Of a DNA stretch of 64,000 bases, positions 28,248-42,739 are shown piece after piece; the first letter of the stretch is position 1; each line of letters starts with the position of its first letter. Source of the stretch: Escherichia coli (GTDB lineage Bacteria > Pseudomonadota > Gammaproteobacteria > Enterobacterales > Enterobacteriaceae); NCBI RefSeq assembly GCF_030013205.1, contig NZ_CP122648.1, one strand, 5' to 3'. The notes below the pieces were generated by a model. The model did not search any database and was not told where the DNA came from. It saw nothing but the letters and a program-made list of their open reading frames with translations. Made by a program: the position numbers and the translations under genes.

Positions 28248-29003
28248 ATTTTGAGTGCGGGACGCCTGAATAAAAAATCTCTGGGTATCGTGATGTTGTT
28301 ATCGGTTGGACTGCTTTTGGCGGGCTGCTCGGGTAGCAAATCATCCGATACAGGAACGTATTCCGGCTCCGTTTACACCGTGAAACGGGGGGATACGCTA
28401 TATCGTATTTCGCGCACCACGGGAACCAGCGTAAAAGAGCTGGCGCGACTGAACGGCATTTCCCCCCCTTACACCATTGAAGTTGGTCAGAAACTAAAAC
28501 TGGGTGGGGCGAAAAGTAGCAGTACACGTAAATCAACCGCCAAATCAACGACCAAAACCGCATCGGTTACACCGTCATCAGCAGTACCGAAATCTTCCTG
28601 GCCGCCAGTAGGGCAACGTTGTTGGTTATGGCCAACGACAGGGAAAGTTATCATGCCGTATTCGACAGCTGATGGCGGCAATAAAGGGATTGATATCTCA
28701 GCTCCACGGGGTACACCTATTTACGCCGCGGGTGCAGGAAAGGTGGTGTATGTGGGCAACCAGCTGCGTGGCTACGGTAATCTCATCATGATTAAACACA
28801 GTGAAGATTACATTACGGCTTACGCCCATAATGACACGATGCTGGTAAATAATGGGCAAAGCGTGAAGGCTGGGCAAAAAATCGCCACTATGGGGAGCAC
28901 TGATGCGGCATCGGTTCGCCTGCATTTCCAGATTCGTTACCGTGCAACGGCAATTGATCCGCTACGTTACTTGCCGCCTCAGGGCAGCAAGCCAAAATGC
29001 TGA
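28248..29003 (+). CDS. ygeR: LysM-domain, M23 peptidase-like lipoprotein
   Basis: TTG start after a GAGGA RBS; lipobox LLLAGCSG; LysM (YTVKRGDTLYRISR) plus C-terminal M23-like domain; 251 aa. Confidence 0.85.
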   Translation: MLSAGRLNKKSLGIVMLLSVGLLLAGCSGSKSSDTGTYSGSVYTVKRGDTLYRISRTTGTSVKELARLNGISPPYTIEVGQKLKLGGAKSSSTRKSTAKSTTKTASVTPSSAVPKSSWPPVGQRCWLWPTTGKVIMPYSTADGGNKGIDISAPRGTPIYAAGAGKVVYVGNQLRGYGNLIMIKHSEDYITAYAHNDTMLVNNGQSVKAGQKIATMGSTDAASVRLHFQIRYRATAIDPLRYLPPQGSKPKC

Positions 29004-29036
29004 TGGCGAATTAATCAGCAGTCAGCAGCGCGGCAC

Positions 29037-29064
29037 TTGCTAAGGAGAGCGTAAGGTTTATAAT
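29037..29064 (+). promoter_or_regulatory. putative sigma70 promoter of glyU
   Basis: TTGCTA (29037-29042), 16-bp spacer, TATAAT (29059-29064), about 27 bp upstream of the mature tRNA 5' end. Confidence 0.5.
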
Positions 29065-29091
29065 GCCTTACGCATCTCGAAGCGGGCGTAG

Positions 29092-29165
29092 TTCAATGGT
29101 AGAACGAGAGCTTCCCAAGCTCTATACGAGGGTTCGATTCCCTTCGCCCGCTCCAAACAAACATT
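29092..29165 (+). tRNA. glyU: tRNA-Gly (anticodon CCC)
   Basis: 74-nt cloverleaf GCGGGCG...CGCCCGCUCCA; anticodon stem AGAGC/GCUCU around loop UUCCCAA; T-arm GGUUCGAUUCC. Confidence 0.95.
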
Positions 29166-29319
29166 TCTCAACGTCTACTAAAGTCCATCAAACCCACGAA
29201 TATCAAGCCTTCCAGCCATTTTCATAGTTTATTAACGTCTACTCACAACTACCAGAATCTACACACAGAAGTGTATAGTAATGCGTATAGGACAAAATTT
29301 ATTTTTTGGAGCTATACAC

Positions 29320-30534
29320 ATGCTGCTTTCAGACCTTGCCATCAGGCGCGCGAAGCCGAAAGAAAAGGCTTATACACTCAATGACGGTAACGGGCTTTCG
29401 TTGCTCATTGAGCCGAACGGTTCGAAAGGGTGGCGACTGCGCTACAGGTTTGCAGGAAAGCCCAAAATGTTGTCGTTGGGTGTGTACCCTGATGTGTCTC
29501 TGTCTGATGCCAGGGCGGCAAGGGATGAGGCTAAAAGGCTTCTTGCTGGTGGTATAAATCCAAGTGAGGCCAGAAAAGCCCAAAAGCGAGAACAGGCGAG
29601 CAAATTTGGCAATACTTTTGAGGGTATTGCTCGCGAATGGTACGAAAAGCGGATCGACAGGTGGTCATCGTCATACGCCGAGGAAATGATCGAGACGTTT
29701 GAAAAAGATGTTTTTCCGTACATTGGCGGTAGGCCGATCGCAGAAATTAAGCCGATGGAATTGCTGGCGGTTCTTTCCCGTCTTAATGACCGTGGTGCGA
29801 CTGAAAAATTGCGTAAGGTTCGCCAGCGATGCGGCGAGGTGTTCCGGTACGCAATCATCACCGGACGCGCCGAATATAATCCAGCCCCTGACCTGGTGAG
29901 CGCATTTGCTCCACATAAAAAAGAGCATTACGCCTATTTGAAGGCCGACGAACTGCCGGAATTTTTCCGCGTTTTTAATACGTACACCGGAAGCCAGATC
30001 GTCAAACTGGCAATGCGGCTATTAATTCTGACAGGTGTCAGACCCGGGGAATTACGGCAGGCAGAATGGCAGGAGATCGATTTTGATAATCGTTTGTGGG
30101 AAGTGCCTAAAGAACGAATGAAGATGCGCCGTCCGCATTGTGTGCCATTACCAGAACAGGCGATAAAAATACTGGAGCAGTTAAAAAACATGACAGGCCA
30201 GTATCAGTTTATTTTCCCCGGTCGTATTCGCCACAGTAAGCCAATGAGTGAAATGGCGATGAATGTGCTCATTCGTCGTATCGGCTATGCCGGGCGCGTT
30301 ACTGGTCATGGATTCCGGCACACCATGAGCACCATTTTGCATGAGCAGGGCTATAACACTGCGTGGATAGAAACGCAGCTCGCGCACGTCGATAAAAACT
30401 CAATTCGTGGCACGTACAACCATGCGCAATATCTGGACGGGCGGCGGGAAATGCTTCAGTGGTACGCTGATTATATGGATTCGCTCGAGCATGGCGGAAA
30501 TGTGGTGCATGGTGAGTTCGGAAAATGCGGGTGA
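29320..30534 (+). CDS. int: tyrosine integrase, P4 family
   Basis: ORF track 29281..30534; start taken at MLLSDLAIRRAKPK (29320); catalytic HGFRHT and RGTYNHA motifs. Confidence 0.9.
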   Translation: MLLSDLAIRRAKPKEKAYTLNDGNGLSLLIEPNGSKGWRLRYRFAGKPKMLSLGVYPDVSLSDARAARDEAKRLLAGGINPSEARKAQKREQASKFGNTFEGIAREWYEKRIDRWSSSYAEEMIETFEKDVFPYIGGRPIAEIKPMELLAVLSRLNDRGATEKLRKVRQRCGEVFRYAIITGRAEYNPAPDLVSAFAPHKKEHYAYLKADELPEFFRVFNTYTGSQIVKLAMRLLILTGVRPGELRQAEWQEIDFDNRLWEVPKERMKMRRPHCVPLPEQAIKILEQLKNMTGQYQFIFPGRIRHSKPMSEMAMNVLIRRIGYAGRVTGHGFRHTMSTILHEQGYNTAWIETQLAHVDKNSIRGTYNHAQYLDGRREMLQWYADYMDSLEHGGNVVHGEFGKCG

Positions 30535-30656
30535 CTGGTTGAGTATACAGTAGTAGACTTTGAGCGACGAAAGAAAAGGCTGTGTCTAGGGTCGCTCCCG
30601 AAAATCCGTACACCTCGACGGACTGGTACAGCCACTACAGTAGAGGACGCTGAGGT

Positions 30657-31460
30657 GTGCGTATGATTGATATTCATGCCGAATTAAACGAATACAAAAA
30701 AGATTTTATTTCTTTACGTGAATTTCTTGAGGTCGTGCTTAAGGTCGCTGGTGATGATTATGATGTTTCAGATGTCATAACTTGGATACTCAGGAGAATA
30801 AGCGGAGAACATATCCGCCTGTACACAGTAAATGAATTTAAGCTGTTGGAATCTTTTTGTAACCCGTATCGGGATGAATTTGATAATGATGTTCTTTATA
30901 GAAATCTGAATGCGGTTCGGAAACGTGGTTGTTTACCTGGTGAGAGGGATGAAAATGGTTTTCTGGTGTCCGGTTATTGGGAAGATCCCGAATTTGAGAA
31001 CATTGGATTTATAAGGGGTGAAATTTTCGCAATTTTTCCCGATGTCCTTGACGCGTTAACGAAGCTGGAAGGCGCTAACTCTTCTGAAAATGACGAGGCA
31101 CAAGGACGCGATATTGAAAAGAAAGAGTTGCGTACAGAGGATGATTTATTATCCCAAATCGCAATGCTGGAAAAAGAAAACGCAGAGTTAAGGGCAAGGA
31201 TAGAGCAGTTAGAGCAAGAGCGCCCGATACACTTATATAAATACTGGGATAAAGACCCATTAGCTAAGGCTATTGAGATTAGAAACAGAGAGTGGGCCAA
31301 TTACGATCCAGAAAATGATTTTGCCACCAGGGGAAATCAAGAAGCGATAACCAGGGAGCTTAAGCAGTGGGGGGCAAGTAATGCACTTGCAACGCTCATA
31401 GAGAGGACTGCCTGCCCTATTAACCGAGACAACAGCCAAAAGAACGCAAAGCCGGATTAA
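30657..31460 (+). CDS. hypothetical protein, 267 aa, C-terminal coiled coil; orphan cargo gene between int and alpA
   Basis: Complete ORF; predicted coiled coil (LSQIAMLEKENAELRARIEQLEQE); no catalytic motif recognised. Confidence 0.7.
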   Translation: MRMIDIHAELNEYKKDFISLREFLEVVLKVAGDDYDVSDVITWILRRISGEHIRLYTVNEFKLLESFCNPYRDEFDNDVLYRNLNAVRKRGCLPGERDENGFLVSGYWEDPEFENIGFIRGEIFAIFPDVLDALTKLEGANSSENDEAQGRDIEKKELRTEDDLLSQIAMLEKENAELRARIEQLEQERPIHLYKYWDKDPLAKAIEIRNREWANYDPENDFATRGNQEAITRELKQWGASNALATLIERTACPINRDNSQKNAKPD

Positions 31461-31475
31461 CGCACCATACCGCAT

Positions 31476-31619
31476 ACCCTGAGGGTGATTTACTGTTACC
31501 CTGAGGGTATTTTTTTATCTTCCCCGTCAATTTTACCATCACCCTTAGGGTAGATTTCCTCCCGATTACCATCACCCTTAGGGTAGATTTCCTTCCGGTA
31601 ACCATTAGGCCTGAGGGTA
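31476..31619. repeat. five copies of an imperfect palindrome CCCT-n-AGGGTA upstream of alpA
   Basis: Copies at 31476-31486, 31498-31508, 31541-31552, 31574-31585, 31609-31619; a 25-bp unit ACCATCACCCTTAGGGTAGATTTCC occurs twice. Confidence 0.7.
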
Positions 31620-31687
31620 TGAAAATATTCGTTATTTCTGTGCCATGATTACCTCGTCAAATTGAGTAGACGTTATGAGGTAAATAT

Positions 31688-31885
31688 ATGTCAAATACGC
31701 TTATTCGTTTAACAGAAGTTCAGCGTAGAACTGGATATAGCAAGGCATGGATTTATCGCCTTATGGGGCAAGGTAAATTTCCTGCATCAGTTAAAATTGG
31801 CTCGCGAGCTATTGCTTTCGTTGAGAGTGAAATTGACGAGTGGATTAATCAGCGTATTGCGGAATCACGCGGAACAGCTACCTGA
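31688..31885 (+). CDS. alpA: AlpA-family phage transcriptional regulator (MerR-like HTH)
   Basis: 65-aa ORF; VQRRTGYSKAWIYRLM...FPASVKIGSRAIAFVESEIDEWI is the AlpA signature. Confidence 0.85.
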   Translation: MSNTLIRLTEVQRRTGYSKAWIYRLMGQGKFPASVKIGSRAIAFVESEIDEWINQRIAESRGTAT

Positions 31886-31962
31886 TTAAATGGCTACGGG
31901 GCTATTGCCCCCAGCTATCCACCAGCAAATAAAAGTAACTTAATTCGATAGCAGGAGTTTTT

Positions 31963-32763
31963 ATGAAATTTCCAAAAACGCCCGTACAGGGGCGGGGCTT
32001 CGTTCGGCCTGAAAACCAGAATCTGCAAAATTTCGGCGAAATTATCCCGATTATTTCCGGCGTTATTGGCGGGAGTGAAACCACTATTGTTAGCGCCAGA
32101 GCGTTACATAAGGCGTTAGGTGTAGGGCGCGTTTTCCGTTCGTGGATCAAGGGGCGCATTGAAGAATATGGGTTCACGGAAGGCGTGGATTATAAGGTTG
32201 TTGAATATTTGAGCCGACCCGATCCGGTGAGCGCAAAATCTCGCCAGCAAACCGCTCTTGAGTACATCATCACAGTGAACATGGCGAAAGAACTGGCGAT
32301 GGTCGAACGTACCGAACAGGGCCGCGCCGTTCGCCAGTACTTTATCAAATGCGAGGAGGAGCTACACAAGGTTGCGCCTGTTCGTTCCGCAGCGTTACGC
32401 CGGGAACTGAAAGCCCGTATCACAGTTGCCAGCTACTTTAAGCCAATGTGTGCCGCGCTGGAGGCGTACCGGGCTGAACTGGGTAAAAACACACTCCAGC
32501 ACCACTACACCACGGAAGCGAACATGCTGGCGCGTATCGTGCTGGGTGGCATGACTGCAAAACAGTGGGCACTGGCGAACGGCATTACAGGCGAACCACG
32601 CGACCACATGAGCACGTTGCAGCTTGAGCACCTTTCTTACCTTGAGCAGAGCAATATCACGCTGATTGAGTTAGGCCAGGACTACCACCAGCGGAAGGCT
32701 GAATTAATTCGTCTTTCGCAGCGTTGGTTAGCCCGTCGCATGGAGGAAAACAGCCATGTGTAA
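31963..32763 (+). CDS. phage antirepressor-like protein (Bro-N/AntA-type N-terminus)
   Basis: 266-aa ORF; the N-terminal region resembles phage antirepressor proteins. Confidence 0.6.
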   Translation: MKFPKTPVQGRGFVRPENQNLQNFGEIIPIISGVIGGSETTIVSARALHKALGVGRVFRSWIKGRIEEYGFTEGVDYKVVEYLSRPDPVSAKSRQQTALEYIITVNMAKELAMVERTEQGRAVRQYFIKCEEELHKVAPVRSAALRRELKARITVASYFKPMCAALEAYRAELGKNTLQHHYTTEANMLARIVLGGMTAKQWALANGITGEPRDHMSTLQLEHLSYLEQSNITLIELGQDYHQRKAELIRLSQRWLARRMEENSHV

Positions 32764-33237
32764 CGCTCTGACCGTTACAAAAAGAAAAAGCGCCCCGTTG
32801 CCGGAGCGCCTTTGTGAACGAATAGCCTACTGCGCCATATTGCTTACTGTCTACGAGGCAGATTATAGCGTTGTGGTCGCACAGAGTGAAGGCGCTGATC
32901 ACCGTTACTACAGCACACCAGAAATGCAGAATATTTTGCTGCAAAATGTCGTTGGCCACGCTGTCCGGAAAGCAAAAAATTTTGCTGGTGGCGTGACTGA
33001 TACGATTTTTTCTGGTTGCTCGGTGCTGATCAACTTAACCTGGACTTATGTACAACATTGCAACTATTCCTACTTTAAGCTGAATGTAACTTTACCTATA
33101 TCATTAGAGGTATGGTCGCGCTTGACCTCAATTTCACCATTTTGTAGCCCTGCTACAAAAAAATATAAAAGTGTCAATGTTGCTGCAATCAGTAACCATT
33201 TTCCAAAAATATACATTCTTGATTTTACCCTTAATCG

Positions 33238-33411
33238 TCAACCTTTTGGCACGATGCCTCGCTGTTGTAATTCTTTGCGGAGCACTCGTTTAATCCAGGT
33301 AGCTAATGAGGTGTCGCCGTCTGCTTTGGCTGCCTCCTCAAGTTGTGCCCTAAATTCTTCTGGTAGCCGCATTTGGTATGGTGGCGATCGTTTTTCTAAT
33401 GGTGTTGACAT
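33238..33411 (-). CDS. Arc/MetJ-type ribbon-helix-helix DNA-binding protein (57 aa)
   Basis: Manual translation MSTPLEKRSPPYQMRLPEEFRAQLEEAAKADGDTSLATWIKRVLRKELQQRGIVPKG; below the 60-aa ORF-track cutoff; start abuts a palindromic operator. Confidence 0.6.
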   Translation of the reverse strand: MSTPLEKRSPPYQMRLPEEFRAQLEEAAKADGDTSLATWIKRVLRKELQQRGIVPKG

Positions 33412-33451
33412 GGTAATTACCCATAATTACTATAGTTACACGGTAATTACC
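33412..33451. promoter_or_regulatory. putative operator: two perfect GGTAATTACC palindromes 30 bp apart
   Basis: Palindromes at 33412-33421 and 33442-33451 in the divergent region between the Arc-like gene and the 33548 gene. Confidence 0.55.
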
Positions 33452-33547
33452 ATTGTACTTACCATTGCAAAAAAAACAACGCCCCGGACTGCGGGAACAG
33501 TACCAGGGCGTCTAACCACCAACGATAGCGAAAGTATCGAGGTAGCT

Positions 33548-33751
33548 ATGATAAATCATACCACACACCCGCAAGGGCGGGACTCGCACAACCTGAATAA
33601 ATACATCTGGCGTTTTATCGCCCTGAGCACGGCACAACCGCGCGTGATTCACATCGAGGCCACCAGCGAACAGGAAGCCCGCCAGCAATCTCCTGATGGC
33701 TGCGTGATGGTATTCGCTGCCCGTATTCGCCAGGAGGTACGCCATGATTAA
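33548..33751 (+). CDS. hypothetical small protein (67 aa)
   Basis: ATG at 33548 with a GAGG RBS; 8-nt overlap with the next ORF. Confidence 0.55.
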   Translation: MINHTTHPQGRDSHNLNKYIWRFIALSTAQPRVIHIEATSEQEARQQSPDGCVMVFAARIRQEVRHD

Positions 33752-34109
33752 CCTGTCACTTACCGACCTTCACCGCATTCAGTTTGACGAGAAATTTACC
33801 GGGCAGCTACTGGTCCATGTGGAGAACGGGCGCATAGTGCGTAATTACCACCTGCCGGATGGTGCAATTGCCGGAAGCGTTGAAGCATTGCTGGAAATGG
33901 CAGAACGTGCGCGACTGATTAAGCCGTTAACGTGCCATCACGATGATGATCTGCATTTTACCGGACGCATGGTGAGCCATTATGAAAACGGCGTTGAGGT
34001 ATCCCGCGAACGTCTGCGTGATGATTGCTGTTTCGGCACATTGCCGGAATTTATCGAATTGCTGACCGATTGCGGTTATCAGGTAATTCAGAGCAAGACG
34101 CAGGAGTAA
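33744..34109 (+). CDS. hypothetical protein (121 aa)
   Basis: ORF track; operon context upstream of primase. Confidence 0.6.
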   Translation: MINLSLTDLHRIQFDEKFTGQLLVHVENGRIVRNYHLPDGAIAGSVEALLEMAERARLIKPLTCHHDDDLHFTGRMVSHYENGVEVSRERLRDDCCFGTLPEFIELLTDCGYQVIQSKTQE

Positions 34110-34115
34110 AAAACC

Positions 34116-34406
34116 ATGAAAAAGAAAAATTCTGGCTTTACTGCCAGCGGCCCCGCTCGGCCTGAAATCAAACACGGCGATATTTACCGCGACACCAGAC
34201 GTGGGGGACGAGTGGTTATTCGTCACGTTACGCCAGGCAATATCACCTACCGCCGTGAGGCTTACGAATATGACTGCGTAATGCCGCGCCGTCAGTTTGA
34301 GCGTGATTTTATTCTGGTGGAAAACAAACAACAGGCGGTGGCGAGACGTGCAGCCACGAATATTAAAAAAATCCGGGCAATGTTGGTTGCGGGAGGTAAG
34401 AAGTGA
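34116..34406 (+). CDS. hypothetical protein (96 aa)
   Basis: ORF track; 4-nt overlap with the primase start. Confidence 0.6.
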   Translation: MKKKNSGFTASGPARPEIKHGDIYRDTRRGGRVVIRHVTPGNITYRREAYEYDCVMPRRQFERDFILVENKQQAVARRAATNIKKIRAMLVAGGKK

Positions 34407-36208
34407 AAAACGCCCCGAATTTAAAATATCAGCCGAAGGATAAATTCACTGAGGTAATCATTTTTGCCGGGACGGATGCTTACGCCCATGCTCAACACTG
34501 GATTGAAAGCGAAGGACGAAAACACGGCGATAACGTACCACCTGTTTACCTGGGGCCGAAGCAACTGGCAGACCTGGCGAACATCCGCATTATCGACGAA
34601 GGGCGCCGCTTTGCGCGTGTCTATATCGCAGGGGAGATCGAACCAATTCAGATCAACGCTATCGCCGAAAAGCTGGCACTGGCTGGCGTACAGGAGGCGA
34701 AATTATACAAAGGCATCACCGACCGGGAGCCGGAGAACTGGCGCGATTACCTGCAACGGATCCGCGAACAGGCAGAGCGCGGGGAAGTTTCAGCGATGAA
34801 ATTAGTCACAAAAAATAGTGACCTACCCAGGCCAGCACTAAATCAGATGGGAGCCAGCCAGAGAGGGGAAGTATTGCTTGAATATTATGGAAGGGCACTG
34901 GCTATAAATGACGATTCTGATGTAGTTCACCATTACAACGGAATTGTCTGGGAGCCTGTATCTGATAAGGAACTCCAGCGGTCTATGGCGAAGATTTTTA
35001 TTGATGCTGGAATCAGTTATTCGCAAAACGCCATTAAATTTGCCGTAGACACAATGAAATTGAGCCTGCCTGTTATGGGCGGGGCAGACAGGAATCTTAT
35101 TGGATTCAGTAACGGGGTATTTGATACCCGGACAGGAAATTTTCGGGAGCATAACAAAAATGACTGGTTGTTAAATGCCAGTGAATTACCGTTCAGCCCA
35201 CCAGCAGAGGGGGAAACGCTGGCAACACATGCGCCGAATTTCTGGAAGTGGCTGCGTCGTTCGGTGGCAAATAACGATCGTAAAGCGGATCGCGTACTGG
35301 CGGCATTATTCATGGTACTGGCGAACCGGTACGACTGGCAGTTATTCCTTGAGGTAACGGGGCCGGGCGGAAGCGGTAAAAGTGTGATGGCGGAGATTTG
35401 TACCATGCTGGCGGGTAAGGCCAATACAGTATCGGCGAGCATGAAGGCGCTGGAAGACGCGAGGGAACGAGCGTTAGTGGTGGGATATTCTCTGATTATC
35501 ATGCCTGACATGACCCGCTACGCAGGTGATGGTGCTGGGATTAAGGCCATTACAGGCGGTGACAAGGTGGCAATCGACCCGAAACATAAAGCCCCCTACT
35601 CCACACGTATTCCGGCGGTAGTGCTGGCAGTAAACAATAACGCCATGTCATTCAGTGATCGCAGTGGAGGGATCTCGCGTCGTAGGGTGATATTTAATTT
35701 CTCTGAGGTCGTACCGGAGAACGAACGCGATCCCATGCTGGTGGAAAAAATAGAAGGCGAACTGGCGGTAGTGATTCGCCATTTGCTTACACGATTTGCC
35801 GACCAGGACGAAGCGAAAAGACTACTTTATGAGCAGCAAAAATCAGAAGAAGCACTGTTAATAAAGCGTGAAGGTGATTCGCTGGTGGACTTCTGCGGTT
35901 ATCTGATGTCGTTGGTTAAATGTGAGGGGATGATAGTAGGTAATGCAGAAATAGTGCCATTTAGCCCGAGGCGATATCTGTATCATGCTTATTTGGCTTA
36001 TATGTCTGCGCATGGTCTGGGAAAACCGGTATCACTGACACGCTTTGGTACAGATATGCCAGGGGCAATGGCTGAGTACGGAAAGGAGTACAAGCGGGCT
36101 AAATGCACTAAAGGTCCAGATAAAGGGCGAACGATCACAAATGTTCTGTTAGATAAAGATGCTGATGGATGGTTACCAGCAGCGGCAGGCATTAACGACA
36201 GAACATGA
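34403..36208 (+). CDS. phage/satellite-type DNA primase-helicase (P4 alpha / D5-like)
   Basis: 601-aa ORF; Walker A GPGGSGKS; followed directly by an iteron array. Confidence 0.8.
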   Translation: MKNAPNLKYQPKDKFTEVIIFAGTDAYAHAQHWIESEGRKHGDNVPPVYLGPKQLADLANIRIIDEGRRFARVYIAGEIEPIQINAIAEKLALAGVQEAKLYKGITDREPENWRDYLQRIREQAERGEVSAMKLVTKNSDLPRPALNQMGASQRGEVLLEYYGRALAINDDSDVVHHYNGIVWEPVSDKELQRSMAKIFIDAGISYSQNAIKFAVDTMKLSLPVMGGADRNLIGFSNGVFDTRTGNFREHNKNDWLLNASELPFSPPAEGETLATHAPNFWKWLRRSVANNDRKADRVLAALFMVLANRYDWQLFLEVTGPGGSGKSVMAEICTMLAGKANTVSASMKALEDARERALVVGYSLIIMPDMTRYAGDGAGIKAITGGDKVAIDPKHKAPYSTRIPAVVLAVNNNAMSFSDRSGGISRRRVIFNFSEVVPENERDPMLVEKIEGELAVVIRHLLTRFADQDEAKRLLYEQQKSEEALLIKREGDSLVDFCGYLMSLVKCEGMIVGNAEIVPFSPRRYLYHAYLAYMSAHGLGKPVSLTRFGTDMPGAMAEYGKEYKRAKCTKGPDKGRTITNVLLDKDADGWLPAAAGINDRT

Positions 36209-36236
36209 TACGAAATTTATAAGTTGAAACTTAAAA

Positions 36237-36572
36237 GTAGACGGTTGGTAGACAGATACACTTAACCCTCTACCAACCATCTACTAATTAATGTTTTGAA
36301 TTATATAGGTATTTTTAATGTGGTAGAGAGGTGGGCAGTTATTTCTATATTCCTAAACCACGGGGGGTATATAAAAAAACAGATAGTTAAGGGTTCATTT
36401 TTTAAATTTCTCTTTTAACTGTCTACACTGTCTACCATTTAGTAAAAATCATTAATTATCAATGTATTAATGCGGTAGACAGTTAGTAGACAGTTTGCAG
36501 ATTGTTTTTTTGTTATGAGTTAATAACATTAAATAAATCAATCAATTATATCGGTAGACAGTTGGTAGACAG
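36237..36572. repeat. putative replication origin: paired GGTAGACAG iterons flanking an AT-rich segment
   Basis: GTAGACGGTTGGTAGACAG (36237-36255), inverted copy (36268-36284), TGGTAGAGAGGTGGGCAG (36321-36338), inverted pair (36419-36436), GCGGTAGACAGTTAGTAGACAG (36473-36494), TCGGTAGACAGTTGGTAGACAG (36551-36572). Confidence 0.7.
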
Positions 36573-36580
36573 TTGTAACG

Positions 36581-37123
36581 ATGGGGCAAAGCATGACTAA
36601 GCTGACCATTAACAGAAAACCGAAAGGCATTTATGGCACGCCGCAGAAAACGACGCAGGCGGCACAGGAGCAGGATAAAACCACGTCGGCGCATAAAGTG
36701 ATGCCCGGTAACCAGAAAGCGCAGCAGAAGCCCACAGGGGCGACACCGTGGCGGCATATGACCAAGCGCCAGCGCAAAAACCGCAGGCGCATTAACCGCC
36801 TCACTGAGTTGTGGCCTGAATTATTCAGCCGGGAAGCACCGAAGCCGCTTAAGGTGGGGATATTCGACGACCTGATGCAGGATCTCGCCGTCAGGGGGCT
36901 GGCATTCGGTCCAGGGGCATTGCGTGCGACGCTGGCATCTTATGCACAGTGTCCGCGCTATTACCGCGCCTTAATGGCTGGTGGGGTACGCTACGACCTG
37001 AAAGGCCAGCCGTGCGGCGAGGTGACACCACAGGAACAACAGGACGCAGAAACGCGGCTGGTGGCGCTGAATGAGAAGCGCAAACGTCAGCGCCGGGTAG
37101 CAAAGGAGAAAACAGGCGCATGA
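36581..37123 (+). CDS. ProQ/FinO-domain RNA-binding protein
   Basis: PLKVGIFDDL...LRATLASYAQCPRYYRAL...YDLKGQPCGEV parallels ProQ (PLKIGIFQDL...LRSALRLYTSSWRYL...VDLDGNPCGEL). Confidence 0.75.
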   Translation: MGQSMTKLTINRKPKGIYGTPQKTTQAAQEQDKTTSAHKVMPGNQKAQQKPTGATPWRHMTKRQRKNRRRINRLTELWPELFSREAPKPLKVGIFDDLMQDLAVRGLAFGPGALRATLASYAQCPRYYRALMAGGVRYDLKGQPCGEVTPQEQQDAETRLVALNEKRKRQRRVAKEKTGA

Positions 37124-37407
37124 TTCACGACAGCAAAGCGGAAGCACTGGAAGCGCGTGGTCTGTACCGGAGAGCGGCGGCGCGGTGGGCTGAGGTCATC
37201 ATGCTGGCGAATGATGACAAGGCACGGGAACAGGCGGCAAAACGTCGCGCGGAATGTATCCGCAAGGCAGCACGCCCACCAGCACGGCAGGATAATTTCG
37301 GGGAGATGCGCGAAACCATCAGCCGGGCACATGCCGGGATGGGATTACATCAGCCCAATGGTAAGGCATTCAGGAAATACCCTGGATCGAAAAATTGCAG
37401 TCAGTGA
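37120..37407 (+). CDS. PerC-family transcriptional activator-like protein
   Basis: 95-aa ORF; SKAEALEARGLYRRAAARWAEV matches the PerC-family N-terminal signature; ATGA overlap with the upstream gene. Confidence 0.6.
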   Translation: MIHDSKAEALEARGLYRRAAARWAEVIMLANDDKAREQAAKRRAECIRKAARPPARQDNFGEMRETISRAHAGMGLHQPNGKAFRKYPGSKNCSQ

Positions 37408-37608
37408 CGGAGGCCGGGATTTTTCCCGGCTTTTTTGTGCCAGTAAAAAGCCCGCAGCCAGAAGTGTTGCGGGCTTTGTTTTTCAGGTGATTGAAGTCAA
37501 TGGGAAGAACGCGATCATCATGCGTTATTGTTTCATAAATTGCAATGATGTAGATCGTCATTTCAGTTTGTGCAATCATAATCGTTGTTTTGTTCAGGAG
37601 ATATGACT

Positions 37609-37782
37609 ATGAGAAAAGCCAGCGTGAAACCTGTTTTACTCGCTCGTGATCAGATTGAAGCATTACAGCGCATCCAGGACGAGGAACGCCGCAATTCTCC
37701 GCTGGGGATTGCTCCGAGCATTCATGAGGTCGCCCGGCGTTTAATGCAGCGGGCGCTTTATCCCGTAGAACGTCCGGCCTGA
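37609..37782 (+). CDS. hypothetical small protein (57 aa)
   Basis: ATG at 37609, 9 nt after an AGGAG RBS; ORF track 37585..37782. Confidence 0.45.
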   Translation: MRKASVKPVLLARDQIEALQRIQDEERRNSPLGIAPSIHEVARRLMQRALYPVERPA

Positions 37783-37821
37783 TGGTCGTGATTTTTTGGT
37801 GAAAAAAGAGAGGTGGTAAAA

Positions 37822-38400
37822 ATGCCAGCAAGCAAAGAAGATTTGCGATTAAAACTGATGGAGGTGGTTAACGCTCTGTCAGAGTCGCAGGGCAGCACTC
37901 CGCAGGAGATTATCGAAATTCTGAATGCGATCCCCGCACAGGATTTCATAAAAGAGGATAACGCTAATCAAAACATCGTCGCGTCAGTCGAAGATGAATC
38001 CTCACTGGCAGAAGCCCAGGCCAAAGCGGATTCCGCATACAGCAATATGGGCCGTCGAGCTCCGGCCCCGTTTGCTGGTGAAAAGTCGATGGATTACCGC
38101 AAGCGTGCATTAATTGGCGCACAGAAGCTGGCTAAAAAATTCAGTGATGTGGATATTCGTTCCGTTTCAGATTCTGCAACGCTGGCGGTGCTGGAAGATC
38201 AGATTTACAAGGCTGCTCAGGAAAGTGCTCAGTGGGCCGTGGAAAACACGCCGGGTTATTTGACTAAAAAAGTCAGGATGGATGAAGCCGGGCGCCGGAT
38301 TACTGAATATCAGGGGGATCCGAATAACTGGCTTAGTGCTTTCAAAATCCCTCCCCGTCGCCTGGTCAAAATTAACGTTGCAAGCCTCGCGGGGGCATGA
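37822..38400 (+). CDS. hypothetical protein (192 aa)
   Basis: ORF track 37813..38400; ATG at 37822 follows GAGAGGTGG. Confidence 0.65.
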   Translation: MPASKEDLRLKLMEVVNALSESQGSTPQEIIEILNAIPAQDFIKEDNANQNIVASVEDESSLAEAQAKADSAYSNMGRRAPAPFAGEKSMDYRKRALIGAQKLAKKFSDVDIRSVSDSATLAVLEDQIYKAAQESAQWAVENTPGYLTKKVRMDEAGRRITEYQGDPNNWLSAFKIPPRRLVKINVASLAGA

Positions 38401-38464
38401 AAAACGTGCTGATTTCAGCCCTGCCGGATTTGGCGGGGCTTATTGATTATAACCGGGTGACATT

Positions 38465-39148
38465 ATGCTTTTAACAGAAATTGAGGCGGCAAAGCAGATT
38501 CGGGACGGTCAGCTACCGTCGCCTTATCAGTTCTCCAACATGTGGCTGGTTAACCTGCGTATTACAGGGACTGGCATGGCCTACCGCGCCGAAGAAAAAG
38601 AATTTGTCTGGCGTTCACCGCAAACTTATCTCAATCCGCAGTTCCTGGAACGTTGCGCCGGAGTACCCGTCATTATCGACCATCCCGAAGGCAAAACCAT
38701 TGAAGACGTTGGCGAACGGTCGCGCATTATTGGCACCGTCATGTTGCCGTATATTCGCGGTGACGAGGTGTGGGGTGTATGCCGGATTTACGGGCAGGAA
38801 ATCATCGATTACATCCAGAAAGCACGGGGGGAGGTATCCACCAGCCCGTCGGTTGTGTTTTGTGGTGCGTCCGGTGGGGCAGAAGTTCCTGATGTAATGG
38901 GCGAGGACAATTTTTTCATTGAGGGTACGCCATTTCTTATCGATCACGTTGCGCTCGTACCGTTGGGCGTATGGGATAAGGGCGGGAAACCATCAGGTGT
39001 GGAAGTAACAACGCCGACAGAAGAAGAACAGCTCGCCGGAATGGTCCGTGAAGTTATTGATGCGGCCTGCAAGCCAGCTCTGGAAAAACTGGAAGAAATA
39101 TCCGGGCGGCTGGATCAACTGGAAAAAAACAGAGTGAGTGAATCATGA
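38465..39148 (+). CDS. hypothetical protein (227 aa)
   Basis: ORF track; overlaps the next gene by 4 nt. Confidence 0.65.
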   Translation: MLLTEIEAAKQIRDGQLPSPYQFSNMWLVNLRITGTGMAYRAEEKEFVWRSPQTYLNPQFLERCAGVPVIIDHPEGKTIEDVGERSRIIGTVMLPYIRGDEVWGVCRIYGQEIIDYIQKARGEVSTSPSVVFCGASGGAEVPDVMGEDNFFIEGTPFLIDHVALVPLGVWDKGGKPSGVEVTTPTEEEQLAGMVREVIDAACKPALEKLEEISGRLDQLEKNRVSES

Positions 39149-39762
39149 AAATTGCTAAAAACTTAAATCTGATTATCCCTGTGCGCACTGAAAAGGGTAA
39201 TGGCTGGCTCCATGCCACGCCGATCAGCAAAGAGGTGTTTAAAGAGCATTTCTTCATCCTGAGTAAAACCTTTTCTGCCATTTTTTCTGAAGGTCTTGGT
39301 GTTGTTGCGGGTCCGCGCGTTGCCTGCCTTATGCTGGAGAAAATCTCCCGTGACTCCGGTTTATGGGATGGGGAGAAAGGCATACGTAATACGCTCATAA
39401 ACGAAATTATTCGCCTGGCAAACCTTGTTTATCCAGTGGAGGGCAAAGGCTACGACACAATCCCTCTCGATATGGCGCTGGAGCGTGAAATCGTTGATTT
39501 GGACGAAGTGGCGGGTGAACTTGTTTTTTTTACATGCGTCTCGTCGATAAATTCCCCGGAGCAGACGAAGGGGACTATGGATGCGGTGAATGGAATATGG
39601 AGCACTCAATGCTCGTCCTTGAGTCTTACGGAATGGATCGATTCATTGCCGACATTGAAGCCTGCCGTCAGTTCTGGCGCGACGGCGAACACGTCATCAG
39701 CGACATCCTCGACTACTCAGCCGGAGCCGGATTCAGAGACATCTGTGCAGATTCCGGTCTGA
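39145..39762 (+). CDS. hypothetical protein (205 aa), Ser/Thr-rich C-terminus
   Basis: ORF track; translationally coupled to the upstream gene. Confidence 0.65.
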   Translation: MKIAKNLNLIIPVRTEKGNGWLHATPISKEVFKEHFFILSKTFSAIFSEGLGVVAGPRVACLMLEKISRDSGLWDGEKGIRNTLINEIIRLANLVYPVEGKGYDTIPLDMALEREIVDLDEVAGELVFFTCVSSINSPEQTKGTMDAVNGIWSTQCSSLSLTEWIDSLPTLKPAVSSGATANTSSATSSTTQPEPDSETSVQIPV

Positions 39763-39826
39763 ATGTAAAAACAGCAGCTCAGTTTCGTGAGCTGCTCAAA
39801 TTCAAAAATCCCGCAGGAGTATTGTA

Positions 39827-41866
39827 ATGTCAGGTAATCAGATGCCAGTTCTGACGCTGGACGTTAATGAAGAACACCTCAAACGGCTTGAGGCAATTTT
39901 TGAAAAGTATCGCAACGGGCTGATGATCGGCCCTGCCGGAACGCCGATGAAAATACCGGGGCAAAGTGGGCGCAGCGTGGGGGCAGGCTTACCCGTGGCG
40001 GCAAAATCTGGTCGGACAGGACCGGATGTATCCGGGAGAGTGAGGGACGAAAAAGGGCGCTTTGTCGGCAGCGGAAAAACAGCAGATTCGTTCGTAAGCA
40101 ACTATAAAGGTCGCGGCGAAACGATGTTTGATAAGTATCTCAGCGGGCTGGGGAAAAATGCCCAACAGACGCTGAAAACTTACAAGCAGATCAATTCTAC
40201 ACTACAGACGACCACTTCAAGATTAAACAACCTGTTTAAAACAACCGTATCGTGGGGAACAAAACTCTCGGTTATGGGCGTTGCCGGACCGTTTGGCTTT
40301 GGCATGATGTCCCGTAGTGTTGTAGAGAAACAGAAAAATGCAGATGAGCTGGTGGCAACGCCAGGAGAGTTAAAGGCGGCAGAAAGCACTTATTCGCCTT
40401 ATTTTTCCGGTGTTGGCAATGTGCTCAATACACTGGCAGCAGCACAAAATGATATATCGCATCCTGCCCGCGTCGGCCTGCTTAATCTGGGGCTAAATCC
40501 TGATAAAAACGCGACTGAAAACCTGCCTGTATTCCTGAAAAAGGTTGCAGAGCTGGCAAAGGAATATCAGGGAAGTGGTCTTACCCAGAGCATGCTCAGG
40601 GGAAGAGGGCTTGGATGGGTAAATTTTGGTCTTACTAACCAGTTAGTCAAATATCAGGACAAAATACCTGAACTCAACAAAGAGTTTTCGTTACGTGCAG
40701 CGCAGAATGATTCGTTACTGACCTCTGCACATACAAGTAAATATCAGAATATTACCAGTAACCTGGAAAAAAACTGGGATCGGCTTACCAGCGGATTTCA
40801 GGGAGCAATGGCGGGGAATGAAGACGCTTTAATCAGAATGTCTGATGGTGCCACGAATGCTGCCCTGAATTTCATGAATGGTGAGAACTTTAAAAGGATT
40901 CTGACGGATGTAGAAACGGGGCTGGATAAACTTGGTAAGTACGTAAATGGCCCGGATTTTAATAACGACCTGAACAATTTTGCCGAAAACGTTGCAAAGG
41001 TTGTTAAGGCACTTAGCGGGTTTGTTGGTTTTGCGGTTGAACATCCCTGGCTTTTTGGGGCCGCAGTACTTGCTGGACCATCGAGAGTTGGTGCTGTGGC
41101 AGCCACAACGACCGGAGTTGCCGCCCGTGTTGTTGGTGGAAGTCTTCTTGGGGCTACAGCCGGAACAGTAGCTGGATTGGCTATTCCTACAAATGACACA
41201 CCTACCACCAGTGAGGAAATGAAAGGGCTGGAGGGGCGTTTCAACTTTGATTATTTTAACGAAGTGCAGGAGTGGCAAAAAAACAATCCGGGTAAGGTCT
41301 GGCCTGGAGGATTGCAGGGATTTTCAAATCAAGTAAACAGATCTGCATATTTATCCAGAGGGATCAGGAATAACAATCCCGGAAATCTTAATTTCGCAGG
41401 ACAAAAAGGGGCTACCCTGGAATCGGGGCCAAATGCCCGTTTTGCCAGCTTCCCGACGATGCTGGAAGGCATTGCCGCCTTAGATCGGCAGGTAATGCTA
41501 TACCTGAAACGCGGCAAAAATACGATTGATCAGATTATTGATATTTATGCCCCTTCATCTGATGGAAATAACACATCGTCCTATAAAAGCTATCTCTCTC
41601 AGTACACCGGATTAGGTGTTAAGGAGAAAATCGATGGTTCTAATTTTGAGGTCATGAAAAAGCTAATTCAGGGCATTATTAACCATGAAAATGGTGCTGC
41701 CGCTAAAGCTGTAAGTGTTGAAGATGTGATCCGGGCGCTGGCTATGAATCGTGGGATTGTCCCTGCAGCAGGAAACAATGATCAGAACGTTAAGTTGGAA
41801 ATTGTTCGGAACGCTGGTGCCGATTACTTCGCGCAACTAATTGGTGCTCAACGGTTCCTGGGATGA
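39827..41866 (+). CDS. large hypothetical protein (679 aa) with glycine-rich hydrophobic segment, tape-measure-like
   Basis: AGGAG RBS; central segment AVLAGPSRVGAVAATTTGVAARVVGGSLLGATAGTVAGLAI; function not assignable from sequence. Confidence 0.7.
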   Translation: MSGNQMPVLTLDVNEEHLKRLEAIFEKYRNGLMIGPAGTPMKIPGQSGRSVGAGLPVAAKSGRTGPDVSGRVRDEKGRFVGSGKTADSFVSNYKGRGETMFDKYLSGLGKNAQQTLKTYKQINSTLQTTTSRLNNLFKTTVSWGTKLSVMGVAGPFGFGMMSRSVVEKQKNADELVATPGELKAAESTYSPYFSGVGNVLNTLAAAQNDISHPARVGLLNLGLNPDKNATENLPVFLKKVAELAKEYQGSGLTQSMLRGRGLGWVNFGLTNQLVKYQDKIPELNKEFSLRAAQNDSLLTSAHTSKYQNITSNLEKNWDRLTSGFQGAMAGNEDALIRMSDGATNAALNFMNGENFKRILTDVETGLDKLGKYVNGPDFNNDLNNFAENVAKVVKALSGFVGFAVEHPWLFGAAVLAGPSRVGAVAATTTGVAARVVGGSLLGATAGTVAGLAIPTNDTPTTSEEMKGLEGRFNFDYFNEVQEWQKNNPGKVWPGGLQGFSNQVNRSAYLSRGIRNNNPGNLNFAGQKGATLESGPNARFASFPTMLEGIAALDRQVMLYLKRGKNTIDQIIDIYAPSSDGNNTSSYKSYLSQYTGLGVKEKIDGSNFEVMKKLIQGIINHENGAAAKAVSVEDVIRALAMNRGIVPAAGNNDQNVKLEIVRNAGADYFAQLIGAQRFLG

Positions 41867-41917
41867 TTTAAATACACGCGCTTTCCGGCGCATTAATACA
41901 GTCTGAGGGGAAGTGTC

Positions 41918-42445: not shown

Positions 42446-42451
42446 CCTCAA

Positions 42452-42732: not shown

Positions 42733-42739
42733 GTAAACC

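What the first reader, a model, noticed from the sequence alone, without database searches (positions are those of the whole stretch)
33238..33751. Unannotated Arc-like repressor and palindromic operators forming a divergent switch
A 57-aa ribbon-helix-helix ORF on the minus strand (33238-33411), absent from the ORF track, abuts two perfect GGTAATTACC palindromes 30 bp apart (33412-33451). These lie between it and a divergent 67-aa gene at the head of the primase operon, the layout of an immunity/replication switch. The track's 331-aa plus-strand ORF over this region is an artefact spanning both.
Basis: partly seen in the sequence, partly recalled or inferred. Interest (0 to 1): 0.5.

Follow-up and report, generated by a model that had tools for sequence, protein, structure and literature searches.

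The report
Hidden repressor switch in phage satellite
A small unannotated gene in an E. coli phage-satellite island very probably encodes an Arc-like repressor that sits on conserved palindromes inside the promoter of the island's replication genes, a candidate for the "missing" repressor of Gram-negative satellites, and it appears to be backed up by a small antisense RNA.

Summary
The 57-aa minus-strand ORF (33238-33411), the two exact GGTAATTACC palindromes (33412-21, 33442-51; 0.04 expected per window) and the 331-aa plus-strand ORF are all there. The window is E. coli ETEC4079. The locus lies in a roughly 17-kb PICI-type satellite at tRNA-Gly, in a 785-bp stretch that RefSeq leaves unannotated.

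The ORF is a real gene. It has 63 homologues, mostly exactly 57 aa, in four orders of Gammaproteobacteria. Substitutions are nearly all silent in its own frame (32 nt changes give 2 aa changes against the O157 copy). It matches PHROG "Arc-like repressor" (1e-6) and is predicted to fold as a ribbon-helix-helix dimer.

The palindromes keep their positions in about 50 loci: one abuts the start codon, the other lies 30-31 bp further. Their sequence changes together with the protein's predicted DNA-reading residues. Palindrome 1 fills the spacer of a conserved promoter (TTGACA-17-TACTAT) for the Icd-like/primase operon. Its -35 lies inside the repressor's first codons.

New here is a covarying hairpin plus T-run, with a conserved -10, which predicts a roughly 78-nt antisense RNA over the Icd-like ribosome-binding site.

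I found no paper describing any of this. DNA binding and expression are untested.

The parts
33238..33411 (-). rhh: 57-aa Arc-like ribbon-helix-helix protein (stop codon 33238-33240). Predicted strand at residues 11-15, helices at 18-31 and 36-50.
   Evidence: ORF. 63 homologues, mostly 57 aa. Silent-substitution pattern. PHROG 228 at 1e-6. AF2 models and Foldseek hits.
33412..33421 (.). O1: perfect palindrome GGTAATTACC. It abuts the rhh ATG and lies inside the 17-bp spacer of P_icd.
   Evidence: A perfect palindrome at -10 in most of 57 loci. The 17-mer TTGACATGGTAATTACC is identical in 25 loci.
33442..33451 (.). O2: perfect palindrome GGTAATTACC, over the predicted start sites of both promoters.
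   Evidence: A site at -40/-41 in 24 of 31 unique upstream regions.
33454..33463 (.). O3 (probable): GGTAAGTACA read on the minus strand, 8 of 10 matches. It lies 12 bp from O2 and overlaps the -10 of P_rhh.
   Evidence: A site at -52/-53 in 8 unique upstream regions, the window included.
33405..33433 (+). P_icd: -35 TTGACA (33405-33410, inside rhh codons 1-3), 17-bp spacer, -10 TACTAT (33428-33433). Predicted start near 33440.
   Evidence: Promoter scan, 10 of 12 matches. TTGACA conserved in 45 of 57 loci. A TAnnnT hexamer at 17-18 bp read by eye in the loci checked; the printed tally is one base out of register.
33452..33457 (-). P_rhh -10 candidate, TACAAT on the minus strand, abutting O2. 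The -35 is weak (TTGTTT near 33474-33479).
   Evidence: TACAAT, TATAAT or TAAAAT at this position in the loci. Below the promoter scan's threshold.
33470..33510 (-). Intrinsic terminator on the minus strand: hairpin 33480-33510, then TTG and a T-run at 33470-33479.
   Evidence: Terminator scan. 10 of 11 pairs show compensatory changes and 94% of cells are paired. G-U to A-C ratio 28:7 favours the minus strand.
33523..33539 (-). SL1: small hairpin complementary to the Icd-like Shine-Dalgarno region.
   Evidence: 5 of 5 pairs show compensatory changes.
33470..33548 (-). Predicted antisense RNA of about 78 nt, covering the Icd-like start codon, Shine-Dalgarno sequence and leader.
   Evidence: Conserved -10, structure and terminator. 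MFE -38 kcal/mol, z -6.6. No Rfam match. Expression not shown.
33555..33560 (-). -10 of the antisense-RNA promoter: TATGAT preceded by TGG.
   Evidence: T27, A28 and T32 of alignment A2 are at least 90% conserved, 7 nt upstream of the complement of the start codon.
33548..33751 (+). Icd-like 67-aa gene, first of the replication operon. It overlaps the next ORF's start by 8 nt.
   Evidence: NCBIfam 3.9e-20. PHROG 6196 at 1.5e-43. RefSeq CDS.
33744..36208 (+). Downstream operon genes: orf121, DUF4222 and D5_N/DUF5906 primase-helicase.
33070..33216 (-). orf48: hydrophobic 48-aa peptide just downstream of rhh. Likely variable cargo of the leftward unit.
   Evidence: No family hit. The genes downstream of rhh are not conserved among loci.
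32786..32813 (-). Terminator-like hairpin that closes the leftward rhh unit, next to the end of antA.
32756..33751 (+). 331-aa ORF: an artefact that runs antisense through rhh, through the operators and the hairpin, into the Icd-like frame.

Best explanation
The 57-aa gene encodes a dimeric ribbon-helix-helix (Arc/CopG-type) repressor belonging to a PICI-type phage satellite.

Proposed mechanism (inferred):
- Dimers bind the 10-bp palindromes O1 and O2, and probably the degenerate O3.
- O1 lies in the spacer of the rightward promoter P_icd (TTGACA-17-TACTAT). O2 lies over the start sites. Occupancy therefore shuts off the Icd-like/primase replication operon.
- O2 and O3 flank the -10 of the repressor's own leftward promoter, which gives autoregulation.
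- A second layer is predicted. A roughly 78-nt RNA is transcribed leftward from a conserved -10 inside the start of the Icd-like gene and ends at the conserved hairpin and T-run. It is fully complementary to the Icd-like leader, Shine-Dalgarno sequence and start codon. It would block translation of the Icd-like gene. That gene overlaps the next ORF, so the block would also reach expression downstream.

Together these would keep satellite replication silent until a helper phage intervenes.

Shown here: the gene is real and conserved; the fold is predicted with good confidence; operator position and sequence are conserved and co-vary with the protein; both hairpins co-vary. Inferred: DNA binding, repression, expression of the RNA, and how a helper lifts the block.
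For: Gene reality:
- 63 homologues, mostly exactly 57 aa.
- Against the O157 copy, 32 nt differences give 2 aa changes in this frame and 8 in the opposite frame. Over all pairs the totals are 3272 and 5945.

Fold:
- PHROG 228 'Arc-like repressor' at 1e-6.
- Pfam Arc hits in 16 of 33 family members.
- The AF2 monomer shows extended chain, helix, helix.
- The tandem single-chain model forms strand 11-15 and two helices in each half, with core pLDDT about 90 and pTM 0.69.
- Its best Foldseek hits are chains of the F-plasmid relaxosome (probability 1.0), which I take from memory to be TraY, a natural tandem ribbon-helix-helix protein; the output does not name the chains.
- By my reading of the entry descriptions, most of the monomer's top 50 hits are ribbon-helix-helix proteins.

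Operators:
- Exact GGTAATTACC twice, against 0.04 expected.
- A palindrome abuts the start codon in most loci, with a second 30-31 bp further in 24 of 31.
- The 17-mer TTGACATGGTAATTACC is identical in 25 loci while the coding sequence differs by 14-39% (24-67 of 171 nt) from the window's.
- Specificity co-varies: RSPQYQMRL goes with GGTAATTACC, RSPQFPMRL with GGTATATACC, KTDQYQIRL with TGTAATTACA, and GNPPFQFRL with GTGTAATTACAC.

Promoter:
- 10 of 12 consensus matches.
- TTGACA is conserved in 45 of 57 loci inside codons 1-3.

Context:
- The first divergent ORF starts 126-141 nt away in nearly all loci and is usually Icd-like.

Antisense RNA:
- 92% of cells paired, 15 of 16 pairs with compensatory changes, slid controls 31-52%.
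- G-U to A-C ratios of 28:7 and 11:4 favour the minus strand.
- A conserved TAnnnT.
- Folding z-score -6.6.
Against: - There is no experimental evidence of expression, binding or repression.
- The window protein scores below the curated cut-offs of Pfam Arc (16.8 against 20.4) and NCBIfam YlcI_YnfO_N (20.1 against 30).
- No single Foldseek hit to the monomer is significant.
- The rhh promoter is weak by consensus and its -35 is not conserved in position. The Shine-Dalgarno sequence is poor.
- In Gram-negative PICIs the published inducer is the activator AlpA, and no repressor has been needed to explain induction (PMC6092414).
- The antisense RNA matches no Rfam family. Its -10 lies in coding sequence, so part of that conservation could come from the protein.
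- A hairpin complementary to the leader must also be able to form in the mRNA.
Confidence: 0.72

Rival explanations
1. The ribbon-helix-helix protein is the antitoxin of a type II toxin-antitoxin pair. The palindromes are its autoregulatory operator and orf48 (or another downstream gene) is the toxin.
For: Many ribbon-helix-helix proteins among the fold hits are antitoxins such as ParD, VapB, CopA and PrpA. A small hydrophobic ORF follows directly. One Yersinia locus has a MazEF-like pair downstream, judged by eye from the sequence.
Against: The downstream gene differs in almost every lineage. The protein ends 7 residues after helix 2, leaving no room for a toxin-binding domain. What stays conserved is the partner on the other side: the promoter, the hairpin and the Icd-like gene at a fixed distance.
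Confidence: 0.05
2. The protein binds the palindromes, but its main role is something other than silencing satellite replication. It could activate its own leftward cargo operon, act on helper-phage DNA to interfere with the helper, or serve as an accessory factor at the origin or for excision.
For: Mnt and some other ribbon-helix-helix proteins activate one promoter while repressing another (own knowledge). PHROG also gives weak hits to partition-type ribbon-helix-helix families. AlpA, not a repressor, is the known switch of these satellites (PMC6092414).
Against: O1 sits between the -35 and -10 of a near-consensus promoter. That is a repressing position (own knowledge), and it is conserved across genera. 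No other exact operator lies in the island apart from an 8-mer inside orf121. The protein is almost absent from true phages, with 4 hits in 50,697 records, the best of them a 15-kb satellite.
Confidence: 0.12
3. The conserved hairpin and T-run do not mark a separate antisense RNA. They are either a structure of the Icd-like mRNA leader, or an attenuator inside a longer rhh mRNA that starts within the Icd-like gene.
For: Any cis-antisense structure is mirrored in the mRNA. The T-run overlaps the weak -35 of P_rhh, so read-through transcripts could carry rhh. No RNA data were available.
Against: The T-run follows the hairpin only on the minus strand. G-U pairs outnumber A-C by 28:7 and 11:4 on that strand. 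A TAnnnT hexamer lies at a fixed distance upstream whatever the reading frame or protein family of the first gene.
Confidence: 0.25
4. The 331-aa plus-strand ORF (or a long 'Icd-like' protein, as PGAP pseudogene calls suggest in O157) is the real gene, and the minus-strand ORF is a shadow of it.
For: The + frame is open in the window and in many homologues. PGAP places a + strand Icd-like pseudogene there in the O157 genome whose annotation I read; an Icd-like feature lies under the match in 25 of the 40 records listed, most of them O157 or other EHEC.
Against: Amino-acid change is about twice as frequent in the + frame (5945 against 3272). Stops occur in that frame in 5 homologues. The ORF would have to read through the operators, a terminator hairpin and a Shine-Dalgarno sequence. 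The Icd-like family match covers only residues 19-62 of the last 67 aa.
Confidence: 0.01

Closest known systems
Plasmid pMV158/pLS1 copy-number control: CopG repressor plus antisense RNA II
   Same: A roughly 45-60-aa ribbon-helix-helix repressor binds a symmetric element that overlaps the promoter of the replication operon. A small countertranscribed RNA with its own intrinsic terminator is complementary to the translation-initiation region of the replication gene. The comparison with pMV158 rests on my own knowledge; the layout here comes.
   Different: Here the repressor is transcribed divergently and is not the first gene of the operon it represses. The element is an integrated phage satellite, not a rolling-circle plasmid. 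The RNA targets a small Icd-like leader gene rather than the initiator itself. No sequence relationship was shown.
Phage P22 immI region: Arc, Mnt and sar RNA controlling ant
   Same: Small Arc-type ribbon-helix-helix repressors act on operators inside overlapping, oppositely oriented promoters, together with a short antisense RNA against the first regulated gene (own knowledge). The Arc-like match is PHROG 228 at 1e-6. Arc structures are among the best fold hits.
   Different: There is one repressor, not two. The operators are 10-bp perfect palindromes 30 bp apart rather than one 21-bp operator bound by a tetramer. The regulated genes are for replication, not an antirepressor. The Pfam Arc score is below its cut-off.
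Phage P1/P7 immI (c4 RNA - icd - ant) and P4 CI RNA immunity
   Same: An Icd-family small ORF heads the regulated operon, and its translation initiation region is the target of an antisense RNA (own knowledge). Immunity RNAs of this type have been reported in the 'Bro zone' of some Gram-negative PICIs (PMC10111431).
   Different: c4 and CI are encoded on the same strand as their targets and are processed from the operon transcript. Here the RNA is cis-antisense, with its own promoter and terminator. No Rfam C4 or isrK match was found at E of 1 or better on either strand. A protein repressor is present as well.
Stl/Rpr master repressors of Gram-positive PICIs (SaPIs)
   Same: The position and logic match: a repressor gene transcribed leftward, divergent from the excision/replication operon, with accessory cargo on its own side (PMC6092414).
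   Different: Stl proteins are large helix-turn-helix proteins that are inactivated by binding helper-phage proteins. This protein is a 57-aa ribbon-helix-helix protein with no obvious sensor domain. Gram-negative PICIs are reported to be induced through AlpA, and whether they have a repressor is described as unclear (PMC6092414).
YlcI/YnfO family (NF041551) cassettes in sister islands
   Same: A YlcI/YnfO gene occupies the same slot in related E. coli islands. It faces a TTGACA promoter with its own repeats, the same type of hairpin and an almost identical Icd-like leader. The window protein gives a weak match (4.8e-4).
   Different: These proteins are about 101 aa with different repeats (GTAAGAC/GTCTTAC). 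The window protein is below the family cut-off (20.1 against 30). The function of YlcI/YnfO is itself unknown: in the listing the top-ranked papers that name it do so only in passing.

Membership tests
Ribbon-helix-helix (MetJ/Arc) superfamily | Strand-helix-helix topology, with two chains pairing their N-terminal strands into an antiparallel sheet. | tested here: met
   This is prediction only. The tandem AF2 model has E11-15, H18-31 and H36-50 in each half, with core pLDDT about 90 and pTM 0.69. Its top Foldseek hits are F-relaxosome chains at probability 1.0, which I take from memory to be TraY, a tandem ribbon-helix-helix protein. By my reading of the entry descriptions, most of the monomer's top 50 hits are ribbon-helix-helix proteins, though none reaches E below 1.
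Pfam Arc (PF03869) | Score at or above the gathering threshold of 20.4 bits. | tested here: not met
   16.8 bits, E 0.0064, residues 9-32 only. 16 of 33 family members give sub-threshold or weak hits, the best at 1.5e-4.
PHROG 228 'Arc-like repressor' | Significant profile match over the domain. | tested here: met
   E 1e-6, 29.7 bits, residues 6-53.
NCBIfam YlcI/YnfO (NF041551) | Score at or above the cut-off of 30 bits. | tested here: not met
   20.1 bits, E 4.8e-4.
Autoregulated operator-binding repressor | Sequence-specific binding to the palindromes and repression of the overlapping promoters. | not testable with these tools
   Indirect only: the operators' positions are conserved and their sequence co-varies with the residues around the predicted strand.
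Type II toxin-antitoxin antitoxin | A conserved adjacent toxin gene and a toxin-binding extension. | tested here: not met
   Downstream genes differ between lineages. Only 7 residues follow helix 2.
Gram-negative PICI / cf-PICI satellites | Integrase, AlpA, primase/replication module, island of about 10-17 kb at a fixed site, no full set of phage genes. | tested here: met
   tRNA-Gly, int, AlpA, AntA, Icd-like, DUF4222, primase, ProQ/FinO, PerC, DUF2213. The att repeats and the exact right end were not mapped. Mobilisation by a helper was not testable.
Rfam C4 / isrK immunity RNAs (P1, P4 type) | Covariance-model match. | tested here: not met
   No match at E of 1 or better in 29000-48000 on either strand.
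Countertranscript (cis-antisense) control RNA | Own promoter, structure conserved on the antisense strand, intrinsic terminator, complementarity to the target's translation-initiation region. | tested here: inconclusive
   Structure, strand bias, terminator and -10 are all supported. Transcription was not observed.

The most novel reading that the evidence does not exclude
The 57-aa ribbon-helix-helix protein is the long-unidentified master repressor (the functional counterpart of Stl/Rpr) of a large subgroup of Gram-negative PICIs and capsid-forming PICIs, including an O157:H7 island that looks like the EcCIEDL933 type. It would work together with a new, satellite-specific cis-antisense RNA. 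Alternative cassettes (GGTAATTACC, GGTATATACC, TGTAATTACA, YlcI/YnfO type) would define immunity groups among satellites, and helper phages would induce the island by overcoming this dual lock.
Probability: 0.3. Interest if true: 0.7.

Novelty: new member of a known kind. Interest (0 to 1): 0.5.

Why it matters
[quoted passage not shown] A later survey of these islands describes Bro-family proteins and immunity RNAs in this zone, with no ribbon-helix-helix protein among the passages I searched (PMC10111431).

This work identifies a conserved repressor-operator cassette that is mostly unannotated or mis-annotated. It sits exactly where a master repressor would sit. It is present in 487 of 5,426 complete E. 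coli genomes, including an O157:H7 capsid-forming satellite, and in satellites of Pasteurellaceae, Orbaceae and Aeromonadales.

The model is directly testable by rhh deletion, EMSA, reporter fusions and a Northern blot for the RNA. The natural operator/protein variants offer a ready-made specificity series for ribbon-helix-helix DNA recognition. The cassette also exposes a recurrent annotation error: a plus-strand "Icd-like" pseudogene called over the real gene.

Tried and rejected
- Rfam at E of 1 or better over 29000-48000 gave nothing for the leader or hairpin. It found only the tRNA, the known int-alpA motif and two chance-level hits.
- A profile search against PDB sequences returned designed helical repeats, which are spurious helix-hairpin matches. 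AmrZ appeared only at E 0.38.
- tblastn with the window's Icd-like protein found only 4 of the loci, because the family is too divergent. I read the first divergent ORFs directly instead.
- My first antisense-frame comparison used the wrong register and was redone. Third codon positions coincide in the two overlapping frames, so position-3 bias alone does not separate them. Amino-acid change and stop codons do.
- The toxin-antitoxin reading was rejected because the downstream genes are not conserved.
- I considered AntA as a dedicated anti-repressor and dropped it as a general partner, because the O157 island has the cassette without AntA.
- Literature searches found no description of this cassette: ribbon-helix-helix + satellite + PICI returned 0 papers; cf-PICI + repressor, Icd-like + antisense, and YnfO/YlcI returned nothing relevant.
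- I could not confirm from the cf-PICI preprint that locus L003 is EcCIEDL933 itself.
Full report
**Where this is.** The window is identical to E. coli ETEC4079 (NZ_CP122643.1; window base 1 = record base 927,999). The finding lies inside an integrative island next to tRNA-Gly (29082-29152). The gene order is integrase, a 265-aa protein, AlpA, AntA, a gap, Icd-like, orf121, DUF4222, D5-type primase, ProQ/FinO, PerC, NUDIX, DUF2213 and more. This is the gene order described for Gram-negative phage-inducible chromosomal islands (PICIs): an integration zone, a variable 'Bro' zone, a replication zone and a late zone (PMC10111431). RefSeq annotates nothing between 32764 and 33547.

**Observation.**
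- The 57-aa ORF at 33238-33411 (-) is there. It falls below the ORF lister's default minimum of 60 aa, which would explain its absence from a track built that way; I could not see the track.
- GGTAATTACC occurs exactly twice in 64 kb, at 33412-21 and 33442-51. Shuffles give 0.04 expected copies and none had two.
- The divergent 67-aa gene (33548-33751) is an Icd-like protein (NCBIfam 3.9e-20).
- The 331-aa plus-strand ORF spans all of these.

**Is the small ORF a gene?** Yes.
- A search of 5.8 billion proteins returned 63 relatives at 65-98% identity. Most are exactly 57 aa. They come from Enterobacterales, Aeromonadales, Orbaceae and Pasteurellaceae.
- Against the copy in an O157:H7 island, 32 of 171 nucleotides differ but only 2 amino acids do. 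Against an O111 copy the figures are 24 nt and 1 aa.
- The third codon positions of the two overlapping frames coincide, so I compared amino-acid change directly. Summed over all pairs, there are 3272 changes in the minus frame and 5945 in the 331-aa frame. The plus frame also carries stops in five homologues.
- The 331-aa ORF is therefore a shadow of the real gene.

**What is the protein?**
- Curated sequence models are borderline. Pfam Arc scores 16.8 bits against a cut-off of 20.4. NCBIfam YlcI/YnfO scores 20.1 against 30.
- PHROG 228 'Arc-like repressor' matches residues 6-53 at 1e-6.
- AlphaFold gives an extended N-terminus followed by two helices.
- When two copies are joined by a linker and modelled with paired homologues, each half forms a strand (residues 11-15) and two helices. 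Core confidence is about 90 and pTM is 0.69.
- The best structural matches of that tandem model are chains of the F-plasmid relaxosome (probability 1.0). From memory these are TraY, a natural tandem ribbon-helix-helix protein; the output does not name the chains.
- By my reading of the entry descriptions, most of the monomer's top 50 hits are ribbon-helix-helix proteins such as Arc, ParD, NikR, CopA and ORF56. None is individually significant.
- I file the protein in the ribbon-helix-helix superfamily as Arc-like. It is not a scored member of Pfam Arc.

**Are the palindromes operators?** I fetched 59 loci from one genome per species and read the 110 nt upstream of each start codon.
- A perfect 10-bp palindrome abuts the start codon in most loci.
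- A second copy, perfect or with 1-2 mismatches, lies 30-31 bp further in 24 of 31 distinct upstream regions. It lies 27-28 bp further in Photorhabdus.
- A third copy lies 12 bp beyond that in eight regions, including the window (33454-33463).
- The 17-mer TTGACATGGTAATTACC is identical in 25 loci, from E. coli, Citrobacter, Yersinia, Xenorhabdus, Photorhabdus, Providencia, Gilliamella, Oceanimonas and Oceanisphaera. In the same loci nearly every third codon position of the gene has changed (53 of 57 columns).
- Where the palindrome differs, so does the protein around the predicted DNA-reading strand:

| Residues around the strand | Palindrome |
|---|---|
| RSPQYQMRL | GGTAATTACC |
| RSPQFPMRL | GGTATATACC |
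| KTDQYQIRL | TGTAATTACA |
| GNPPFQFRL | GTGTAATTACAC |

This is the pattern expected of a repressor and its operator.

**Promoter geometry.**
- The scan found one strong plus-strand promoter: TTGACA (33405-10), a 17-bp spacer, then TACTAT (33428-33).
- Its -35 is the reverse complement of rhh codons 1-2 plus the first base of codon 3. The ORF begins (A/T/G)TGTCAA in 45 of 57 loci. This would account for residue 3 in the aligned family being T, I, M, S or R, all of which have codons starting with A.
- Reading the slices shifted by one base, a TAnnnT hexamer follows at 17-18 bp in most of the loci I checked by eye. The tally printed in that call is one base out of register.
- O1 therefore fills the spacer of the replication-operon promoter, and O2 covers its start site.
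- On the other strand a TACAAT-like hexamer (33457 to 33452) abuts O2 and is overlapped by O3. It is the likely -10 of the repressor's own promoter. Its -35 is weak and not fixed in position.
- The two promoters overlap face to face.

**Partner genes.**
- On the operator side, the first ORF starts 126-141 nt from the rhh ATG in nearly all loci. It is usually a 58-89-aa Icd-like protein.
- On the other side, nothing is conserved downstream of rhh. In the window it is a 48-aa hydrophobic peptide followed by a terminator at 32813 to 32786.
- This argues against a toxin-antitoxin pair. It fits a repressor whose own transcription unit carries variable cargo.

**A second layer.**
- Between O3 and the Icd-like start lies a G+C-rich hairpin (33480-33510), followed on the minus strand only by TTG and a T-run.
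- In an alignment of 30 loci (A2), this hairpin and a smaller one complementary to the Icd-like Shine-Dalgarno region are paired in 92% of cells. Compensatory changes occur in 15 of 16 pairs. Slid controls reach only 31-52%.
- G-U pairs outnumber A-C pairs 28:7 and 11:4 on the minus strand, so the fold is selected in the leftward RNA.
- A TAnnnT hexamer (33560 to 33555 in the window) is at least 90% conserved, 7 nt upstream of the complement of the start codon. This holds even though the first gene belongs to different protein families and, in the window, is in a different register.
- Together these predict a roughly 78-nt antisense RNA (about 33548 to 33470). It folds at -38 kcal/mol with z -6.6 and matches no Rfam family.
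- It would mask the Icd-like ribosome-binding site. That gene overlaps the next ORF by 8 nt, so the block would likely reach downstream expression as well.
- Transcription of this RNA has not been observed, so this layer is a prediction.

**Distribution and annotation.**
- 487 of 5,426 complete E. coli genomes carry the cassette. About 1,475 records carry part of the query region; in the listed rows that part is mostly the hairpin and leader.
- In the O157:H7 island whose annotation I read, a capsid-forming PICI with capsid and decoration genes, the gene is not annotated and PGAP instead calls a plus-strand 'Icd-like' pseudogene over it. In one search an Icd-like feature lies under the match in 25 of the 40 records listed, most of them O157 or other EHEC.
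- In sister islands a 101-aa YlcI/YnfO protein occupies the same slot, with its own repeats in front of the same kind of promoter, hairpin and leader. One O111 island carries both cassettes in tandem.
- True phages almost lack the protein. There are 4 hits in 50,697 records, and the best is a 15-kb 'phage' that has the layout of a capsid-forming satellite.

**Comparison with what is known.**
- The logic is closest to pMV158 (CopG repressor plus RNA II on the replication operon) and to P22 immI (Arc/Mnt plus sar RNA). The slot it occupies is that of Stl/Rpr in Gram-positive PICIs.
- It differs from P1/P4 immunity, where the RNA lies on the same strand as its target. No C4 or isrK match is present here.
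- The PICI literature I could search names AlpA as activator and calls the existence of a repressor in Gram-negative elements 'unclear' (PMC6092414). I found no mention of this protein.

**Verdict.** This is a new member of a known kind (an Arc/CopG-type repressor with its operators) in a setting where it had not been described. It comes with a predicted antisense partner and a clear experimental path. Binding, repression, RNA expression and the link to helper induction remain to be shown.

Noticed in passing
window 30579-30646 (+): Rfam int-alpA RNA motif (RF02996) at 45.5 bits, above its gathering score of 35.8. It lies between the integrase and the 265-aa gene.
   Followed up: no
window 33841-33848; L003 6588: A third exact GTAATTAC lies inside orf121 at codons N-Y-H, about 400 bp from O2. 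It is also present at the homologous place in the O157 island. It could be a distal operator or a coding coincidence.
   Followed up: partly
L004 5997-7377: An O111:H8 island carries two repressor cassettes in tandem: the 57-aa protein, then a 101-aa YlcI/YnfO protein. Each faces a TTGACA promoter with its own repeats, a hairpin and an Icd-type leader. The second leader is almost identical to the window's.
   Followed up: partly
L036-L040 (Photorhabdus), about 2600-4160: Two copies of the 57-aa gene with GGTATATACC operators lie about 1.2 kb apart. The first ORF opposite the downstream copy is a conserved 119-aa protein rather than an Icd-like one.
   Followed up: no
L003 5554-6147; records listed: In the O157 genome whose annotation I read, RefSeq calls a plus-strand 'Icd-like' pseudogene over the real minus-strand gene. 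In one search an Icd-like feature lies under the match in 25 of the 40 records listed, mostly O157 and other EHEC. This looks like a systematic mis-annotation.
   Followed up: partly
L064 (OR544139.1) 4313-5183: 'Pasteurella phage Pmp8' (15.3 kb) has the layout of a capsid-forming satellite. It carries the same repressor/divergent-operon module.
   Followed up: no
window 33070-33216 (-): A 48-aa peptide with a hydrophobic N-terminal half lies just downstream of rhh. It has no family match. This position holds different small genes in other lineages.
   Followed up: partly
window 32786-32813: A G+C-rich hairpin between the convergent antA and rhh units has a T-run on the minus strand and a weak one on the plus strand. 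It may terminate transcription in both directions, which bears on whether AlpA-driven transcription can reach the replication operon.
   Followed up: no
window 33511-33518 (TCTAACCA on +): The motif TGGTTAGA/TGGTCAGA just 5' of the terminator hairpin is nearly invariant in 30 loci. In the window's predicted fold it pairs with the RNA's 5' end. Because it does not vary, covariation cannot test this pairing.
   Followed up: partly
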